From IMG/VR virus record IMGVR_UViG_3300037400_001617: DNA of 64,000 bases; one strand, written 5' to 3'. Position numbers and translations under genes: made by a program. The stretch's first letter is position 1, and each line of letters opens with the position of its first letter. The notes beneath the pieces are model-generated. The model saw nothing but the letters and a program-made list of their open reading frames with translations. It did no database searches and was not told the DNA's origin. Origin of the DNA: a virus. Lineage: Duplodnaviria; Caudoviricetes. This document shows, in pieces, positions 4,310 to 53,286 of this stretch.

Positions 4310-6013
4310 TTAGAATACTGGGTCGATAGGCTTGAATGATGGATCAGGCTGTATAGTGAGGCTATATAGATTCATGATACATTCCTTCGTTACATTACGA
4401 GGACTTATACCATCCATACCTATAAGGTTGATCTTGCTATTTGCAGCTTTCTCCAGTTCAGCATTAGCTTCGATAGTATAGATACCCTTAACTATAGCGG
4501 TATCTCCATCGAAGTCCATACCCATTACATCTATATTACCATTAGAGATAGTAAGAGTTGGAGAGAAGAGAGCAGCGGTGTTTCTTCCGAGATCTTCAGA
4601 TCTGATCTTAGGCCACCACTTATACACTTTACCATCCATCATAACAGGCTCAGTTTCATTAGTAGACTTGATGTTTATCTTGGAAGGATACTGGTTAAGG
4701 TAACGGTCTATAGGGAATCGAGTAATCAGACACATCTTATCTGCAGTCATCTCACATGCAGCAAGATAGAAGAGATCACACCATGTCATAGGTCTTTCTA
4801 TAAGAGGATAGCCTGAATAATCCTTCTGGTCATCTATATGCTCAGATGTAACTTTTCTTCCTTTAAATACTATGAACGGAGTATCTGATGTAGTTTTAAG
4901 TTTCTTCTCTTTCACCATCTTAGCCCATTCAGCTTTATCTATGGGAACTGGTATAGGCTGGAAACGGTTAGAGTATCCATGAACAAATCTCTCTATCTGT
5001 TTCACTATCTCCGTATCAGAGAACATGATCTGATAGTCTTCTATAGGAACAGATATCTCACCACTCGGACCAGTCATGGAATACATAGTCTTACCACCGA
5101 ATTCGTTCTCAAAGAAACGTCTACAGTAGTAGATGATGAATGGCTGGAAGAGTACTATAGCAGCCTCAAGAGGGCATGCTGCATGGTCCATATCAACCAT
5201 GAGGTCTTCTATGTTTTCAACCTTCAGATTGGCAGCAGACATAACAAGACGTACACTATAGTCTACAGTCTTGTACATGACACCCTTCTTTATAATGCCA
5301 GTCTTTCCAGGTAAGTTACCACCAGTTTCTTCACCATTGATTACTGTACCTGCACCGAACCAATCATAGATCTGTTTCAGTGTAACTTGTATTCTACCCT
5401 TAGTAGCATCTGCAAGACTTAGTCCATACTCAGCAGTTTCTCTGAGTGCTTTGGTCGCAATGATAAGAGAGCTGTAGAGCTTATTGATTTCTCCGACGCC
5501 TATACTAGCCTGCTTAGTATCAACGTCTCTATAGTATGGCGGTATAACGGGGCATTTCTTAACCCACATCTGGCTCTTGACTTTGTCAAGAAACTTAATC
5601 TTTGTAGCTCTGTCTTTAGAACTGGATTCTTTGGCAGACCAGTCTATCTTATCGTAGTTTGCTTTGAACCAATTCAGACCAGTATTACCTTCAGGGTCTT
5701 TAACCAATTGTCCTTTAGCATCAATAGAGAAGTTCTCGGTTCCGTGTACTATAGCCTCTACCTTCTTATCTAGAGTACAGAGTATCTTATAGACCAGAGG
5801 ATTGAGGAACCATTCGCCAAGATCTATATATGCATAGATACCAGCTCTTTCAGCTTTAGTAATACCGAAGATCTCATTAGACAGAAGTCCATCTGGTGCT
5901 GGAGTCGGACCGTTAAAGAATACAGGGTTAGTGATCTCTTTACAGTCATTGGCTCTGACAAAGCGTTCTACGTCTAATATACTTATATCGAAATGATTAG
6001 TAGATGAACTCAT
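4310..6013 (-). CDS. multisubunit RNA polymerase beta-prime subunit, N-terminal half (probably virion RNAP)
   Basis: DGLLSNEIFG, PVIPPYYRD, KTVDYSVRLV, TRFP and catalytic GMDFDGD motifs. The late promoter fits a virion-packaged RNAP. Confidence 0.9.
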   Translation of the reverse strand: MSSSTNHFDISILDVERFVRANDCKEITNPVFFNGPTPAPDGLLSNEIFGITKAERAGIYAYIDLGEWFLNPLVYKILCTLDKKVEAIVHGTENFSIDAKGQLVKDPEGNTGLNWFKANYDKIDWSAKESSSKDRATKIKFLDKVKSQMWVKKCPVIPPYYRDVDTKQASIGVGEINKLYSSLIIATKALRETAEYGLSLADATKGRIQVTLKQIYDWFGAGTVINGEETGGNLPGKTGIIKKGVMYKTVDYSVRLVMSAANLKVENIEDLMVDMDHAACPLEAAIVLFQPFIIYYCRRFFENEFGGKTMYSMTGPSGEISVPIEDYQIMFSDTEIVKQIERFVHGYSNRFQPIPVPIDKAEWAKMVKEKKLKTTSDTPFIVFKGRKVTSEHIDDQKDYSGYPLIERPMTWCDLFYLAACEMTADKMCLITRFPIDRYLNQYPSKINIKSTNETEPVMMDGKVYKWWPKIRSEDLGRNTAALFSPTLTISNGNIDVMGMDFDGDTAIVKGIYTIEANAELEKAANSKINLIGMDGISPRNVTKECIMNLYSLTIQPDPSFKPIDPVF

Positions 6014-21029: not shown

Positions 21030-22583
21030 TTACGCAACCTTTGGCTCAAGATCAAGACAAGACTGAATGTCGTCAAGATCCTCTTCTGTATATGAATCCA
21101 TAGAAAGGTTAACGAAGCTGTTGAGACAGATGAGATTGTTGGTCTGAAGAGATACATTAGTCTCAAACAGACCAGTGTTTCTGGAGATCTGACCAACGTA
21201 ACGTGGATTGAATACTTCCATACAAGCCTTGAGGAACTCCTGATTGATGATGTACATGCAGTTCAGAGTATCACCATCAAAGTCTGCATTAAGACCAGAG
21301 AGAATCTCAAGTGGCAGTGACATTGCATAAGAGTCAAAGTGAATACCAACAACCTGCATCTGAAGAACTGACAGAGACCAGATAGATGGATTACGATTGA
21401 TAAGTACACCGACATACTCGGAGTTGACTATATTCATCATAATGTCATAGATCTCTTTAGACGGATTGATAGTTGCCATGAACCACTTCTGATATGCAAT
21501 GTGACGAGGCATTGTCTTTGAGAGAATATTGACTATTCTGAACTCAAGAAGCTCTACCATAGATGCATATGGGAGTATTACCTGATCTATCTCAAGATCA
21601 CTGTTCGGCACGATTACTGATCTCGCACAGAAGTTATATCTGCCTCCTATAGTAGAACGTACCAGTCCCTTCTTATGAGAAAGCTGCTTCTCAAGGTCTG
21701 TATAGATATCCATCCACTTAGACTGCATTCTATACAGAATCTGTTTAGCAGGTTTACCAGTACGTCTAGAGACAAGCTGGTTACGATTGACTCTTGTAGC
21801 CTGAGCCGCAAGAATATTATACAGTGAGTTATTACCATCAAAGTTGAACTGACTGTCGTCAAGGTTGAATGGTCTTAACTGTGTAGTATAGACTGGAATG
21901 GAGTGGGTGAACACGATGTTCTTATACTCCATGATGTGGTCATAGTAATCCATCTTCTCTGGCTTCTTGGCATGCTTGTTCTTATAGAACTCCATGATCT
22001 CGTCAAAACGATCACGGAATGCAAGTATACCAATTCCAACGAATGGACTACTCTTACTAGGTTTCACCTCGATAGGTTTACCGTCTACATCTATCTTATC
22101 ATCATTATCGATGATTGCATCGAACTCTTTGGCTCCGATAAATGCAGAGATAGACTTGAACAGGTTGGGATGAATCAGACAATACTTTTCGTCTATACAT
22201 ATCCATCCAAACTTCTCAAAGTCATCACCCATGTAGTCTACTGGAGTATGACAATACTCACAGATCTGTCCATAGTGTAATCTACCATTAAGATGATTGC
22301 ACTTACATCTGTAGCGATTAGAGTATGCATCCTGATCATTCAGAGTGGGACCGAAGAATGTCGAGAAGATACTTTTGTCGCTCTTAAGGTCTTTCTTGAT
22401 GTCCTGACGCTTCTCGATGATCATACCCTTACCTCTCATAAGGTCAGCTTCTCTTTCCTTATCGAGGTCTATGATTTCGAGAGACGTCTCATATACGTAT
22501 TGCTGTTGTGTTTTGGGGTCTGATGATACGGGTGTTATTGAAAGGGTTGTTCTCCTTTCACGTCTGTCGTAGTCGCTTAACAT
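21030..22583 (-). CDS. multisubunit RNA polymerase beta-prime subunit, N-terminal half (probably non-virion RNAP)
   Basis: Zn ribbon CKC...CEYC, GGRYNFCARSVIVP, LINRNPS and catalytic NADFDGD motifs. Confidence 0.92.
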   Translation of the reverse strand: MLSDYDRRERRTTLSITPVSSDPKTQQQYVYETSLEIIDLDKEREADLMRGKGMIIEKRQDIKKDLKSDKSIFSTFFGPTLNDQDAYSNRYRCKCNHLNGRLHYGQICEYCHTPVDYMGDDFEKFGWICIDEKYCLIHPNLFKSISAFIGAKEFDAIIDNDDKIDVDGKPIEVKPSKSSPFVGIGILAFRDRFDEIMEFYKNKHAKKPEKMDYYDHIMEYKNIVFTHSIPVYTTQLRPFNLDDSQFNFDGNNSLYNILAAQATRVNRNQLVSRRTGKPAKQILYRMQSKWMDIYTDLEKQLSHKKGLVRSTIGGRYNFCARSVIVPNSDLEIDQVILPYASMVELLEFRIVNILSKTMPRHIAYQKWFMATINPSKEIYDIMMNIVNSEYVGVLINRNPSIWSLSVLQMQVVGIHFDSYAMSLPLEILSGLNADFDGDTLNCMYIINQEFLKACMEVFNPRYVGQISRNTGLFETNVSLQTNNLICLNSFVNLSMDSYTEEDLDDIQSCLDLEPKVA

Positions 22584-30504: not shown

Positions 30505-30703
30505 AAAAAGAGGGGAGGAGGCCGTTAAGCCTCCTCTGCGAAGGGGGTGAATGGTTCTAGATAAAGCCAAATTAAGCACCACTTGAAGAATGGATGTCGT
30601 TACGCCTACGACAACCGAGGGCTCAATAGGCAATACATGAGTTGAACCGAATGCTAGAATGATTATAGTCACGTTAGCGAGACGATCCGTCAACATCCCG
30701 CTC
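30505..30703 (-). ncRNA. candidate ~200-nt structured late small RNA
   Basis: Late motif AACA ctatag TG at 30703-30714; successive hairpins, two with G-U pairs on this strand; terminator GAGGAGGC/GCCUCCUC plus U-tract; no SD for the overlapping 76-aa ORF. Confidence 0.65.
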
Positions 30704-30731
30704 ACTATAGTGTTATAGGAGTTGTAAAGTA

Positions 30732-49079: not shown

Positions 49080-49727
49080 ATGGCTATGCTTTATACACTT
49101 GATTATTCTCCATTTAAGAAGCTTACACCAAGTCAGTATAAAAAGGGTATACCGAGTCTGGACAGTTATACTGGTATAGAAGGACTGTTACAGTCGGTAA
49201 GACCAAAAGATCGTGAAGCTATCAGAACAGTACTCACATATGATCCATCGATCATATTCATGGATATCATGTACTATGCTGGTATTGGAACCAGTAATGG
49301 TATCGTCGTAGATAATGATACTATGAGACCATTACCTTACAATGGAAACAAGCTCATGAGATATCCTGCTGTTATCGGCGGATGCGGAAACATGAACATA
49401 GTCAACTTCGATCCTATCTTCAACCTTAAGATGATGGAGATAGTCTTCACTGTGTATATCACTAAGATATCTGCAGAGAGAAACATAAGCATCAAGTCAT
49501 TCTATATATACGGACGTCAGAACCAACTTAAATCTGGTGAGTTGTGTTTAGACGACTATAAGGGAACTAAACTAGTTTCGGATCAATTCATGACTGATAC
49601 TGTATGCTATATCAATCTGATGATGCAGATTGAGGGTGTAGACAGAGAAACAGCATACAATCAGTGTGCGGCTCTTGACAACTACATCGTTTGCTCAAAG
49701 AAGATGAAAGGACGTCATTATGAATGA
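49080..49727 (+). CDS. hypothetical protein
   Basis: 215 aa, SD AAGGAGG. Confidence 0.8.
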   Translation: MAMLYTLDYSPFKKLTPSQYKKGIPSLDSYTGIEGLLQSVRPKDREAIRTVLTYDPSIIFMDIMYYAGIGTSNGIVVDNDTMRPLPYNGNKLMRYPAVIGGCGNMNIVNFDPIFNLKMMEIVFTVYITKISAERNISIKSFYIYGRQNQLKSGELCLDDYKGTKLVSDQFMTDTVCYINLMMQIEGVDRETAYNQCAALDNYIVCSKKMKGRHYE

Positions 49728-50928
49728 TTATGGATCACTGAACACTAATCAGCGTAGAGTGTTCGACGCAGCTATGGAATGGTGGAAAGGTGCTCGATCT
49801 GAACCGTTCGAGATCTCTGGACCACCAGGCTCTGGCAAGACATATCTGATAAACACTATAGTCGATTACCTCGGTATAGCTAGAGAAAAAATAGCTCCAC
49901 TCGCATACACTGGAGCGGCCGCAATCAATATGAGAGTTCATGGAATGGAGAACGCTAAAACTGCTCATTCATGGCTCTATCTTCCAGTAATGCAACAGCT
50001 AGTCGACGAAAATGGTAAACCTATCATAGATCCAAGAACTGGTAAGCAAAAAGTGGTGATAAAATACGTCGAAAGAGAATCACTACCAGGTATAGATCTC
50101 TTGATAATAGATGAGGGTGGCACTATACCACCCAACATGAGAGCTACTATAGAGAAACATCATATACCAACCATAGTAGCAGGAGATATAGATCAATTGC
50201 CACCAGTACATGGTAAGCCTGCGTATCTGAATGATCCCCGCAAGATTCACTTCCTAACGGAGATCATGAGACAGGCTCAGGATAGTGGTATAGTCTATAT
50301 CTCTCAAATGGTAAAAGATGGAAGACAACCGCATTGTGGACTCTGGAAAGATGCGCTTGTCATCCATCGAAATCAGCTAACCTTAGATATGCTCTTAAGG
50401 TCAAAGATTATACTATGTGGCAGAAACGTCACTAGAGACTATTATAATGACTTCATGAGAGCTACCTATGGTTTTGCAGGACAGCTACCAATGTATGGTG
50501 AGAGGGTAGTATGTCGTAAGAACAACTGGAATGTCGTCACTCCAGATGGAATCAATCTCACCAATGGTCTTTTAGGTATGTGTATAAATGACCCAAAGTA
50601 TACATATGATAGAAAGCATGATTCTTTCGTCTTAGACTTTGCACCAGATATGAGTACTGGTGTAACGTCTAATGTATTCCACGGTCTCGACTGTTCATAC
50701 ACATACTTCACATCGGATGCTAAAGTCCGTGAGAAACTACGAAACGATCCCGAAATAAAGACTGAAAGATTTGAGTTTGGATATGCCATTACTACCCACA
50801 TGTCACAAGGCTCTGAGTACGACAATGGTATATACATAGAAGAATCACTCAACAAGAGCATAGATCACAAACTTAACTACGTTGGAGTTACACGCTTCAG
50901 AAAGTTTTGTATCTATGTAAAAGAGTGA
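49720..50928 (+). CDS. Dda/RecD-like SF1B helicase
   Basis: GPPGSGKT, AYTGAAA, IIDEG, GDIDQLPPV, LTEIMRQ, YAITTHMSQGSEY and YVGVTR motifs. Confidence 0.92.
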   Translation: MNDYGSLNTNQRRVFDAAMEWWKGARSEPFEISGPPGSGKTYLINTIVDYLGIAREKIAPLAYTGAAAINMRVHGMENAKTAHSWLYLPVMQQLVDENGKPIIDPRTGKQKVVIKYVERESLPGIDLLIIDEGGTIPPNMRATIEKHHIPTIVAGDIDQLPPVHGKPAYLNDPRKIHFLTEIMRQAQDSGIVYISQMVKDGRQPHCGLWKDALVIHRNQLTLDMLLRSKIILCGRNVTRDYYNDFMRATYGFAGQLPMYGERVVCRKNNWNVVTPDGINLTNGLLGMCINDPKYTYDRKHDSFVLDFAPDMSTGVTSNVFHGLDCSYTYFTSDAKVREKLRNDPEIKTERFEFGYAITTHMSQGSEYDNGIYIEESLNKSIDHKLNYVGVTRFRKFCIYVKE

Positions 50929-50961
50929 TGTATTCTTCTAACAAACTCACAACAATATAGT

Positions 50962-51110
50962 ATGGCGGTGCAGCTATGCACTATTAGACTCTCACAGCAG
51001 TTCTCTATGTTAAAATGGACAGTTATGAGTCTAGACGAGCGATTCTTTAAGAGTTGAATCTTAAGCAGTTACCGCCACCACCTTTCCGTAGTGGAAATGT
51101 CCACTACGGA
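50962..51110 (+). ncRNA. candidate structured late RNA with tRNA-like acceptor stem and 3' ACCA
   Basis: Late motif AACA atatag TA at 50951-50962; GGCGGUG/UACCGCC closing stem then ACCA; internal UAGACUC/GAGUCUA helix; downstream hairpin at 51085-51110; no ORF. Confidence 0.65.
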
Positions 51111-51194
51111 TAAGTTGTCTTAAAACAACTTTTGGCTACATATCATACCTTTGAGTCAAGAACAATACTAAGACTCAGAAAGGAAATCGAAACA

Positions 51195-51911
51195 ATGAGC
51201 GATAACATTGTAAACCCCTTTGGTATTGTGAATCCTGTATCTGGTGAAGTAACCGAACAGGAAGTTAATCCTACCAAAGAGGATCTCAAACTTATCAAAG
51301 AAAAGGAAAAGAGACTGGCAGAAGAGGCTAAGAAGAACCTCAAGACAGTCAAAGTTGCAGATGGTACAGCAACAACTAAGAGACCTGCTAAGAATAAGAG
51401 AGCTCCACAGGCTCCAGTAGTAGCAGGTAAACCACAACAGCAGAATGTTCCTCAGAAGCCTAAGCAGATACAGTCTGTAAAAGAGTATCTTGTGTGCTTT
51501 GTATTTGAGGGACAGGATATGACTGAACCAGACTGGACACGTTCCAGATGGATAACTGCAGAAGGAAGAGGTTTATGCTTTGCTAAGACAGTAAGCATGA
51601 TTCATGATATAACCTCTGAAAATGAAGACTTCTATGATCCTATCGATTATGAGGAGTCATTCGTGTTATGCACGGGAGTCAAGTATGAAGAGAAGGTTCC
51701 GCTCCTTCAGTTCATCAGACTCTGCATCGAGAAAGAAGCCAAAGCAATAGACAAGTATATGCTTGACTATATGCAGGCAGTCCTCAAGTCATACGAAACT
51801 GGTTCGTTTGAACCTATTGACGAATGGGTCAAGGTTAACAATGATACACCTTGTACTCCACAGGTTCAGCAGACCATGTATACATCACTTGAGGGTGAAG
51901 ATATAAACTAA
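51195..51911 (+). CDS. hypothetical protein
   Basis: SD AGAAAGGA before ATG 51195. Confidence 0.8.
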   Translation: MSDNIVNPFGIVNPVSGEVTEQEVNPTKEDLKLIKEKEKRLAEEAKKNLKTVKVADGTATTKRPAKNKRAPQAPVVAGKPQQQNVPQKPKQIQSVKEYLVCFVFEGQDMTEPDWTRSRWITAEGRGLCFAKTVSMIHDITSENEDFYDPIDYEESFVLCTGVKYEEKVPLLQFIRLCIEKEAKAIDKYMLDYMQAVLKSYETGSFEPIDEWVKVNNDTPCTPQVQQTMYTSLEGEDIN

Positions 51912-51933
51912 ACTAGCCAAGGAGGACACTAAT

Positions 51934-52701
51934 ATGGCACAGAACAACAAACCAAGACAGCCTCGTAAGACGTGGTTTGATAACCAGGCCGAGAGGAAAG
52001 GACAGAGGTTTCTGGACGGTTGGGCCAATGGTCAGGACAGAGACTTCATATTACCAGATAAAAAGATAAGAGCCATCGATAATATCCTGAGAGATATTAA
52101 AGATGGCCAGATAAATCAGATTAGGGATATAACTCCAACAAGGTTACTTAACAAGGACCTTCTGTATTCCATCACGCAGGTATGTAAAGCGAGACTGGAT
52201 TATTTTAACCGTATGTATAATGCGTTTGTTATGCTCGACATGGTAAGCTACTGCGTTCTGACACAGAAACGGCTTTATGAACTGACAGAAGGAATAACAG
52301 ACGTAGATGAAAAAATGAAGCATCTTGAAAAGATTGGTGTTGACAGAAACTATATTTGGCTCGTCGGCACTATGCCTTTAGACGGAGCATATGATCCCAT
52401 GACCAACACTTACAAAGGTGGTATACCTTATACAAGAGAGCTTCAGCAAGCACACAATCACCCAGCATATCAAACGCAGATATGGATGGCTGAGAGGTAT
52501 AAAACCATGTATAAGATCATGTACAATATCTTCTCAAAAATCTATGATGGTGTGGCACATAACACGCTCAAACAGTCGGATATAACATTTTATGAGCAGA
52601 TTCAGTCAGCAATGAAAAACGCTGAAGAGCATAAGTTCCCAAATGGAATGAAGGTGCCGCTTGACTTCAATGTGCTGACTGGATACGACTACATGCTTTA
52701 A
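51934..52701 (+). CDS. hypothetical protein
   Basis: 255 aa, SD AAGGAGG. Confidence 0.8.
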   Translation: MAQNNKPRQPRKTWFDNQAERKGQRFLDGWANGQDRDFILPDKKIRAIDNILRDIKDGQINQIRDITPTRLLNKDLLYSITQVCKARLDYFNRMYNAFVMLDMVSYCVLTQKRLYELTEGITDVDEKMKHLEKIGVDRNYIWLVGTMPLDGAYDPMTNTYKGGIPYTRELQQAHNHPAYQTQIWMAERYKTMYKIMYNIFSKIYDGVAHNTLKQSDITFYEQIQSAMKNAEEHKFPNGMKVPLDFNVLTGYDYML

Positions 52702-52749
52702 CCAGGCACTCAACTTATCTATAATACTAACCAAAGGAGGTTAATAGTT

Positions 52750-53286
52750 ATGGATAAAGCAAAACTTATAGCTCTTAGAAAAGAGCTTCATCAGCTTACC
52801 AATATAGCTAGAAAGAATCCCGATCAGAAGATAGATGTACCGCTCATCATAGCAATCGATCACGGTACTACTGTAATCGACGAGATCGATAGTTGTATAA
52901 TGTGGGATGATGATAACGAAGTATTGTACTCAATCGAGTACAATAACAACGTGAACGACAAGCTGTACAATATCTGCCCGATGAGAATCAGAGCATTTCA
53001 GTACAGCACGATCGTTTCAGTAACTGCGAGAGCAGATCTGAATATGCTTATGGACTTCTTCGACTCAAAGATTTCTGACGGAATCACGAATGAGACTACT
53101 AAGGAGAAGTACAGAAAGGCATACATGGATATGAGAGATCCGAGAACCTTCGCTGCAGGACATCCTAGTCCGTCTACTTCAAAGGATCTTCCTTTGAATC
53201 AGGTAGATAGATTCAACGAAGACTTCCCGCTCATGAATCCATCAGCTATCATGGCAAACCTCGAGAACTCAAATCCTGAGGTATAA
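52750..53286 (+). CDS. late hypothetical protein (candidate sRNA target)
   Basis: 178 aa, late motif at 52712-52723, SD AAAGGAGGT. Confidence 0.8.
   Translation: MDKAKLIALRKELHQLTNIARKNPDQKIDVPLIIAIDHGTTVIDEIDSCIMWDDDNEVLYSIEYNNNVNDKLYNICPMRIRAFQYSTIVSVTARADLNMLMDFFDSKISDGITNETTKEKYRKAYMDMRDPRTFAAGHPSPSTSKDLPLNQVDRFNEDFPLMNPSAIMANLENSNPEV

What the first reader, a model, noticed from the sequence alone, without database searches (positions are those of the whole stretch)
50951..51110. tRNA/tmRNA-TLD-like non-coding RNA with an encoded CCA end
Seen: a late motif puts +1 at about 50962. GGCGGUG (50964-50970) pairs with UACCGCC (51070-51076), followed by discriminator A and CCA (51077-51080). 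Inside are a 14-nt D-like segment with no canonical stem, a long irregular helix (UAGACUC/GAGUCUA, UCUAU/AUGGA), GAC, and a T-like hairpin (UUAAGA-GUUGAA-UCUUAA), followed by a strong terminator-like hairpin. At 117 nt, with the T-like arm not abutting the acceptor stem, it is not a canonical tRNA, and it lacks the G3-U70 alanine determinant and tag ORF of tmRNA. Inference: a novel tRNA mimic (decoy for anticodon nucleases or tRNA-targeting toxins, or an SmpB/aaRS ligand), or a 6S-like RNAP-binding RNA.
Basis: partly seen in the sequence, partly recalled or inferred. Interest (0 to 1): 0.75.

Follow-up and report, generated by a model that had tools for sequence, protein, structure and literature searches.

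The report
Late small RNA of jumbo phage
This is a real, previously uncatalogued small structured RNA gene with its own late promoter in a clade of uncultivated giant phages from cattle gut and wastewater, but the features that made it look like a tRNA (the T-like arm and the CCA end) are the parts that relatives do not keep.

Summary
The element lies in the 266-nt gap between a Dda-like helicase gene and an unknown ORF of an RNA-polymerase-encoding jumbo phage. An AR9-type late promoter (AACA-N6-TA, 50951-50962) puts +1 at A50962, 1-2 nt before the terminal helix.

Eight distinct copies were aligned (helicase 74-100% identical). A more distant copy (L075, 63%) recodes the whole terminal stem.

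The tRNA reading fails:
- ARAGORN and Rfam give nothing.
- The "T-like" hairpin exists only in this genome, and the stretch holding it, the 3' strand and the tail is 40% identical among close relatives, against 84% for the core.
- ACCA occurs in two lineages only.
- The +1 AUG frame is not conserved.

Best reading: a late-transcribed small RNA of about 150 nt that shares the helicase terminator hairpin and probably acts in trans. Its partner is unknown, and no target was found. The scan noted the same family before in another genome.

Novel family, ordinary kind, narrow distribution.

The parts
50951..50962 (+). Late promoter AACAATATAGTA (AACA-N6-T-A(+1)); predicted start A50962
   Evidence: It matches the AR9 non-virion RNAP late consensus AACA-(6N)-TA/G, in which the last base is the start site (PMC5312081, PMC7598289). 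The motif is 9-fold enriched upstream of genes in this genome. It sits at the same place in all RNA-bearing relatives.
50963..50967 (+). P1 5' strand (UGGCG); pairs with 51073-51077. G50968-G50970 can extend it but compete with P2
   Evidence: All five pairs are kept in the 8 aligned sequences. In L075 the stem is recoded to UUGCGAA/UUCGCAA.
50968..50981 (+). P2 hairpin GUGCA-GCUA-UGCAC
   Evidence: Four of its 5 pairs change on both sides in L073/L122, which read GAUGC-GAUU-GCAUC. L075 and L111 also have a local hairpin at this place.
50985..51033 (+). P3 long irregular helix: outer 7 bp UAGACUC/GAGUCUA, middle ACAG/CAGU with an A-A mismatch, inner UUC/GGA, and an apical loop holding UGUUAAAAU
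   Evidence: The outer helix has 2 pairs changed on both sides, and the inner part has 3 more. The two differences between L122 and L073 are A-U to G-U and G-U to G-C, both inside this helix.
51034..51072 (+).
   Evidence: From the end of P3 to the 3' hairpin, mean identity among five close variants is 40%, against 84% for the core and 85% for the helicase gene. The region is replaced or absent in L003, L004, L117, L072 and L073.
51073..51077 (+). P1 3' strand (CGCCA)
51078..51085 (+). Single-stranded linker CCACCUUU, which includes the 'CCA'
   Evidence: This sequence is present only in the window and in L004/L115/L117. It differs in L003, L072, L073/L122 and L075.
51086..51109 (+). Perfect 10-bp hairpin; probable terminator shared with the helicase transcript
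   Evidence: It is also kept, with covariation, in relatives that lack the RNA (L078, L112). No adjacent U-tract follows it.
51112..51133 (+). Weak A/U-rich second hairpin followed by a run of U; possible true 3' end
   Evidence: The pairing is only partly kept in L003 and L004.
51138..51153 (+). Early-type promoter ACATATCAT-N6-G of the next gene (ORF 51195-51911). It is not part of the RNA but bounds the unit
   Evidence: It resembles the AR9 early consensus TATATATTAT-(6N)-G (PMC5312081). It is conserved in all relatives.

Best explanation
This is a stand-alone small non-coding RNA gene of an AR9-like jumbo phage that encodes its own RNA polymerases.

Late in infection the phage's non-virion RNA polymerase would start at A50962. 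It would transcribe a closed multi-helix domain: terminal stem P1, hairpin P2, long helix P3 and a lineage-specific P4. It would then stop at the hairpin(s) that also end the helicase transcript, giving an RNA of about 150-170 nt. The layout is that of a 3'-UTR-type small RNA with an internal promoter of its own.

Shown here: the promoter motif, the position of the terminal helix at +2, covarying P1, P2 and P3, one copy per genome, and no conserved ORF.

Inferred: that it is released as a discrete RNA and acts in trans. I think the most likely mode is binding a phage or host protein through the conserved P3, with its A-A mismatch, CA/AA internal loop and UGUUAAA loop. The fast-changing P4 and linker would be either unconstrained or under diversifying selection.

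The CCA and the T-like arm are lineage accidents, not functional tRNA features.
For: - The late promoter consensus is confirmed from the literature and is enriched 9-fold upstream of genes here. The genome encodes RNAP beta and beta' homologues.
- The promoter and a terminal helix starting at +1 to +3 are kept in seven lineages.
- Covariation: 99.5% of cells pair, 9 pairs change on both sides, 0 of 500 shuffles reach these values, and slid controls give 0-2 pairs.
- A covariance model built from six close copies finds L073 and L122 at E about 6e-7.
- There is one copy per genome in two complete relatives.
- Synteny is conserved, and relatives with helicase identity of 61% or less have only the hairpin, so the RNA is an insertion between the stop codon and the terminator.
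- G-U pairs and the promoter fix the strand as +.
- The frame from the +1 AUG stops after 7 and 10 codons in L003 and L004, and L075 has no AUG.
Against: - There is no direct evidence for discrete ends. Only contigs were available. RNA-library contigs of 479 nt and 7.1 kb run across the hairpin, which fits read-through or DNA carry-over.
- The hairpin lacks an adjacent U-tract.
- The core is no more conserved than the neighbouring coding DNA (84% against 85%).
- Only about five independent lineages are known, and the alignment used for the pair counts was fitted to the model.
- An extended P1, in which the 5' CAGCU pairs with a 3' AGCUG-like segment, competes with P2 in the energy-minimum folds and cannot be excluded.
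- No partner or target was identified.
Confidence: 0.5

Rival explanations
1. It is a cis-acting late leader. The late promoter serves to express the downstream operon (ORFs 51195-53286) late in infection, as for AR9 genes that carry both early and late promoters. The folded domain, which starts at +2, would be a 5' stabiliser or a regulatory leader, and the hairpin only a partial stop.
For: - AR9 has a class of continuously expressed genes with both promoter types.
- No other late motif lies before ORFs 51195-53286.
- The hairpin has no adjacent U-tract.
- RNA-library contigs bridge the hairpin.
- The early transcript of the same gene also starts with a 5'-terminal hairpin.
Against: - The late promoter is placed upstream of a 10-bp perfect hairpin that ends the helicase unit.
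- Relatives express the same operon without the 110-140-nt domain.
- No conserved antiterminator pairing between the linker or P1 3' strand and the hairpin could be drawn in L003 or L072 (hand check on the sequences).
- A mere stabiliser would not need three covarying helices.
Confidence: 0.25
2. It is a tRNA or tmRNA-TLD mimic. The RNA would be trimmed to the ACCA end and engage tRNA-handling proteins such as RNase P, CCA-adding enzyme, aaRS, SmpB or anticodon nucleases, acting as a decoy or ligand.
For: - A terminal stem of 5-7 bp is followed by A in most lineages, and by CCA in the window and the L004 group.
- The window's P4 loop GUUGAAUC resembles GUUCGAAUC with one base missing.
- Phage T4 does encode tRNA-like stable RNAs of unknown function.
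Against: - ARAGORN finds nothing, and there is no tRNA, tmRNA or tRNA-Sec match even at E <= 10.
- CCA is absent in L003, L072, L073/L122, L075 and L111.
- The T-like hairpin is unique to the window, does not abut the stem, and has a 6-nt loop.
- The region that holds it is the least conserved part (40%).
- The D-like segment is a tetraloop hairpin without GG.
- The long helix has an 11-13-nt loop, not an anticodon loop.
- Transcription starting at +1 leaves only a 1-2-nt leader, so RNase P processing is not needed.
- T4 rnaC, by contrast, carries a canonical CCGGG-UUCGAAU-CCCGG T arm abutting its 3' strand.
Confidence: 0.07
3. It is a structured 3' UTR or a selfish insertion. The domain would be a remnant of an inserted element, or a 3'-UTR structure of the helicase mRNA, with no trans function. 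The late-promoter match would be incidental or residual.
For: - It is present only in a subclade and is inserted exactly between the stop codon and the terminator.
- It has short terminal inverted repeats.
- Its 3' part is hypervariable.
- Core identity equals that of coding DNA.
Against: - Compensatory changes in three helices show selection on the fold.
- The promoter motif is invariant at the same distance from the helix in all lineages, even where the RNA sequence is unrecognisable (L075, L111).
- There is a single copy per genome and no repeats elsewhere.
Confidence: 0.12
4. It is a leaderless mRNA for a 33-codon peptide that starts at the +1 AUG (50962).
For: A50962-U-G is at the predicted 5' end, and the frame is open for 33 codons in the window (sequence).
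Against: The frame stops after 7 codons in L003 and 10 in L004. It is shifted by 2-nt indels. L075 starts AUU.
Confidence: 0.02

Closest known systems
3'-UTR-type bacterial small RNAs with their own internal promoter (e.g. DapZ, MicL; from my own knowledge, not checked here)
   Same: The promoter sits at the end of, or just behind, the upstream gene. The RNA shares that gene's terminator hairpin and is 100-200 nt long. A single-stranded stretch lies just before the terminator.
   Different: The promoter here is a phage non-virion RNAP late promoter. The body is a closed multi-helix junction rather than an open seed region. No seed or target was found.
Phage T4 stable RNAs rnaC (species 1, 139 nt) and rnaD (species 2, 119 nt)
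   Same: They are phage-encoded RNAs of 120-140 nt with unknown function and paired 5' and 3' ends. They have no Rfam family either.
   Different: T4 rnaC has a canonical T arm abutting the 3' strand and lies inside the tRNA gene cluster. The present RNA has no T arm in most copies, lies 50 kb from the only tRNA gene found, and has its own promoter.
Small RNAs mapped in phiKZ-like giant phages (201phi2-1 sRNA005 / phiKZ sRNA upstream of gp182; PMC11512511)
   Same: They are short transcription units in giant phages with own RNAPs, in which a stop follows closely on a start. They are conserved by position and by 2D structure, and their function is unknown.
   Different: Those are 5'-UTR-derived, come from Pseudomonas nucleus-forming phages, and use different promoters. 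No sequence relation was tested or is expected.
tRNA / tmRNA tRNA-like domain
   Same: A G/C-rich terminal stem of 5-7 bp. In two lineages it is followed by ACCA.
   Different: There is no cloverleaf, no T loop, no D loop and no G3-U70. CCA and the T-like hairpin are not conserved. No model matches.

Membership tests
tRNA | Cloverleaf recognised by tRNA detectors and the covariance model | tested here: not met
   ARAGORN finds 0 genes in the window. There is no RF00005 match at gathering score or at E <= 10.
tRNA | T arm (5 bp plus a 7-nt UUCRANY loop) abutting the acceptor stem and conserved | tested here: not met
   The window hairpin has a 6-nt loop and lies 5 nt from the stem. It is absent or replaced in all relatives.
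tRNA | Discriminator base plus a 3' CCA end (encoded or added) | tested here: inconclusive
   An encoded ACCA is found only in the window and in L004/L115/L117. Post-transcriptional addition and the real 3' end cannot be tested with contigs.
tmRNA tRNA-like domain | G3-U70 pair, T arm, tag reading frame, and an RF00023-type match | tested here: not met
   The third pair is C-G. ARAGORN finds no tmRNA. There is no Rfam match.
6S RNA | A rod of about 180 nt with a large central bubble, and a match to the 6S models | tested here: not met
   There is no Rfam match at E <= 10. The fold is a 3- or 4-way junction.
Other Rfam phage or tRNA-like RNAs (C4 antisense RNA, phi29 pRNA, bacterial Y-RNA-like) | A match to the family covariance model | tested here: not met
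   cmscan of all 4227 Rfam 15 models gave two chance-level matches (E = 7.3) to Streptococcus sRNA models. Both centre on the hairpin region downstream of the core (51077-51177), and only one reaches the last four bases of the proposed RNA.
AR9-type late transcription unit | AACA-(6N)-T-A/G(+1) motif in a phage that encodes multisubunit RNAPs | tested here: met
   The motif lies at 50951-50962. It is enriched 9-fold upstream of genes. RNAP beta and beta' homologues are present. The consensus is taken from PMC5312081. Actual initiation was not tested.
Structured non-coding RNA (general) | Base pairs kept through compensatory changes, and no conserved reading frame | tested here: met
   Nine pairs change on both sides and 99.5% of cells pair. 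The frame is broken in L003, L004 and L075. Caveat: 8 sequences, about 5 lineages, and a model-fitted alignment.

The most novel reading that the evidence does not exclude
The invariant core (P1-P2-P3) carries an exchangeable 3' module (P4 plus linker) that is under diversifying selection. In this reading the RNA is a decoy or specificity RNA in an arms race with a host defence or a competing phage. In the window and L004 lineages the module ends in a tRNA-like ACCA that is really used by tRNA-handling enzymes.
Probability: 0.08. Interest if true: 0.8.

Novelty: new member of a known kind. Interest (0 to 1): 0.4.

Why it matters
Small RNAs of giant phages that bring their own RNA polymerases are almost unexplored. 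A few have been mapped in phiKZ-like phages, and none has a function. Here a promoter of known type, a defined start, covarying helices and a graded series of natural variants define a new RNA family in uncultivated AR9-like phages of rumen and wastewater. This gives a concrete candidate for late-phase RNA-based regulation.

It also corrects an attractive but wrong reading. An encoded CCA after a G/C stem is not enough to call a tRNA mimic. The sharp contrast between a constrained core and a 40%-identical 3' module is the one feature that is still unexplained.

Tried and rejected
- **Public phage records:** blastn 'distant' of 50000-52000 found no match.
- **Downstream ORF as a probe in IMG/VR:** no relatives found.
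- **Exact 18-mer of the 5' part in IMG/VR:** only the three known relatives.
- **Hairpin pattern in IMG/VR:** 35 hits, mostly unrelated palindromes, so it is not specific.
- **Gapped pattern in JGI metagenomes:** only 2 loci, one of them a duplicate.
- **Laying RNA-library contigs:** contigs only, with no starts or ends. The wastewater and activated-sludge runs hold the L004-type variant. This gives no evidence for or against a discrete RNA, and parts without cover are not interpreted.
- **Target searches:**
  - Duplex energies of the linker, P3 loop, J2/3 and P4 against 109 translation-initiation regions were no better than shuffles.
  - blastn-short of the variable modules against the genome gave only chance 11-12-mers.
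  - The complement of the P3 loop in two complete relatives gave no more hits than the reversed control.
- **Anti-SD idea:** the linker CCACCUUUC resembles a 16S 3' end, but the similarity is not kept in L072, L073 or L075, so it was dropped.
- **Riboswitch or antiterminator pairing with the hairpin:** not conserved.
- **Loop-loop (pRNA-like) or palindromic AGCU kissing interaction:** not kept in L073.
- **The TATAGTATGGCGGT repeat at 5530:** lies inside a minus-strand ORF and is chance.
- **P0136 look-up:** returned no DNA.
- **L020 match to the model:** E = 0.32, taken as chance.

Full report
**1. Context**

The window is part of a 122.5-kb IMG/VR virus record, estimated to be about 50% complete. 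Its close relatives are complete genomes of 229-232 kb. DNA runs that hold the stretch are from bovine gut. Wastewater and activated-sludge RNA libraries hold a variant of it.

The genome encodes beta- and beta'-like RNA polymerase pieces. The finding lies in the 266-nt gap between a Dda-like helicase gene (49720-50928, PHROG 325, E = 1e-71) and an ORF without family (51195-51911). The neighbourhood holds replication genes, including a DnaB-like helicase and a topoisomerase II.

**2. The observation**

ARAGORN finds no tRNA or tmRNA in the window. Rfam 15 gives no match at gathering scores, and only two chance matches (E = 7.3) centred on the hairpin region just downstream when the region is scanned at E <= 10.

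The whole unit folds well below shuffles (z = -4.6). Most of that comes from the 3' hairpin (z = -6.7 for 51081-51135). The 119-nt core alone gives z = -2.05. Energy alone would therefore not establish the RNA.

**3. Promoter**

The 'late motif' is real. AACA-N6-TA is the late promoter consensus of the non-virion RNA polymerase of Bacillus phage AR9, and its last base is the start site (PMC5312081 and PMC7598289).

In this genome the motif occurs 3.46 times per kb in the 20-80 nt upstream of start codons on the coding strand, against 0.38 per kb overall. 23 of 109 crudely called genes have one. The flanks show an extended consensus that the RNA's copy (AACAATATAGTA, 50951-50962) fits. The predicted start is A50962, one base before the terminal helix.

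The next gene has its own early-type promoter (ACATATCAT-N6-G, about 51138-51153). It resembles the AR9 early consensus and is followed by a 5'-terminal hairpin.

**4. Relatives**

I used the helicase as an anchor and fetched the homologous gap from a graded series. Gene order is the same throughout.

| Helicase identity | Loci | What the gap holds |
|---|---|---|
| 100-74% | window, L003/L005, L004/L115, L117-L120, L072, L073/L074, L122 | A recognisable copy |
| 67% and 63% | L111, L075 | The same promoter motif, then a different sequence that again folds into a domain closed by a terminal helix starting at +1 to +3 |
| 61-52% | L076/L077, L078, L112, L113, L114 | A gap of only 55-158 nt holding at most the hairpin |

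The RNA is thus an insertion, or a loss elsewhere, between the helicase stop codon and its terminator, and it is confined to one subclade. There is one copy per genome.

**5. Structure**

A covariance model built from six close copies finds L073 and L122 at E about 6e-7. On the resulting 8-sequence alignment:
- 99.5% of cells pair, and 9 of 25 pairs change on both sides.
- No shuffle of 500 reaches these values.
- Sliding the partners by 1-3 columns leaves 0-2 such pairs and 24-41% pairing.

By helix:
- **P2 (50968-50981):** changes from GUGCA/UGCAC to GAUGC/GCAUC, with 4 compensatory pairs.
- **Outer P3:** changes from U-A to A-U and from A-U to G-C.
- **Inner P3:** has three more double changes. 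The only two differences between L073 and L122 are A-U to G-U and G-U to G-C within it.
- **P1:** invariant in these eight except for one G-U. In L075 it is wholly recoded to UUGCGAA/UUCGCAA.

G-U pairs fix the strand as +.

Caveats:
- There are only about five independent lineages.
- The alignment was fitted to the model.
- The energy-minimum folds prefer an extension of P1, in which the 5' CAGCU pairs with a conserved 3' AGC(U)G, over P2. The two may alternate, or the loop may form a pseudoknot. I could not decide this.

**6. What is not conserved**

Among five close variants, mean pairwise identity is as follows:

| Segment | Identity |
|---|---|
| Helicase 3' coding DNA | 85% |
| Stop codon to +1 | 91% |
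| P1-P2-P3 core | 84% |
| End of P3 to the hairpin | 40% |
| Hairpin to the next ATG | 93% |

The T-like hairpin exists only in the window. L004/L115 and L117 have an unrelated 7-bp hairpin with an 11-nt loop, L073 has a 4-bp one, and L003 and L072 have none.

ACCACC follows the stem in the window and in the L004/L115/L117 lineage only.

The frame that starts with the +1 AUG (33 codons here) stops after 7 and 10 codons in L003 and L004, and L075 has no AUG. The unit is therefore not coding.

**7. tRNA likeness judged**

Apart from a G/C-rich terminal stem followed mostly by A, none of the defining features of a tRNA or a tmRNA TLD is met (see the membership table).

For comparison, T4's stable RNA rnaC, a phage RNA of 139 nt and unknown function, carries a textbook T arm abutting its 3' strand and sits in the tRNA cluster. 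It too lacks an Rfam family. The present RNA resembles it only in being a phage RNA with paired ends. The single tRNA gene found in the record is 50 kb away.

**8. Function**

What is shown: a late-promoter unit whose transcript would begin with a closed, covarying multi-helix domain and then run into the hairpin that also closes the helicase unit.

I take it to be a discrete late small RNA, like a 3'-UTR-type sRNA with its own promoter, that acts in trans. I rate this at 0.5. I favour protein binding through the conserved P3, because the best-conserved bases are in stems, an internal loop and the P3 loop, while the single-stranded linker varies. No base-pairing target emerged in the phage genomes. 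Host targets cannot be searched because the host is unknown.

The main rival, at 0.25, is a cis-acting late leader for the downstream operon. In its favour, the hairpin has no adjacent U-tract, RNA-library contigs bridge it, and AR9 has genes with both promoter types.

I rate the tRNA-mimic reading at 0.07.

**9. Earlier scan notes**

The scan had already noted the L003-type copy in another genome as a stand-alone structured RNA with the same promoter (e1-5496173, and e1-5496187 for a further reading). My comparison shows these are the same family as the present finding.

**10. Verdict**

This is a real and uncatalogued RNA family. It is of an ordinary kind (a phage small RNA), has a narrow distribution, and has no known function. 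The eye-catching tRNA features are not conserved. The unexplained point worth keeping is the hypervariable 3' module beside a constrained core.

Noticed in passing
window 30505-30714 (-): A second unit of about 190 nt without an ORF lies behind a late motif (AACA-ctatag-TG).
   Followed up: no
window 51138-51194 (+): An early-type promoter ACATATCAT-N6-G is followed at once by a 5'-terminal hairpin (UGAGUC...GACUCA) and the SD GAAAGGA of ORF 51195. The hairpin is kept with changed sequence in L073, L075 and L078. This stretch is the best-conserved part of the gap (93%).
   Followed up: partly
L078:3712-3857 and L112:2587-2746: Relatives that lack the RNA keep a near-late motif, AACT-N6-TA, directly in front of the conserved hairpin. 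This suggests either a minimal ancestral unit or a remnant left after loss of the RNA.
   Followed up: no
L075:3775-3896 and L111:2394-2466: At the same place and behind the same promoter motif, more distant phages carry RNAs of unrelated sequence (122 and 73 nt). Both again fold into a domain closed by a terminal helix at +1 to +3. The covariance model does not detect them.
   Followed up: partly
window 50964-51080, other samples: RNA libraries from wastewater and activated sludge (three studies) contain contigs of the L004-type variant, in which a 70-nt module replaces 56 nt of the window. This phage clade is therefore not confined to the rumen.
   Followed up: partly
G000:C1:100181-100534 and 121060-121749; window 21252-21647 (-): There are two separate beta-like RNAP matches and a split beta'-like match, as expected for a phage with virion and non-virion polymerases. 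One beta-like frame contains a TAA.
   Followed up: no
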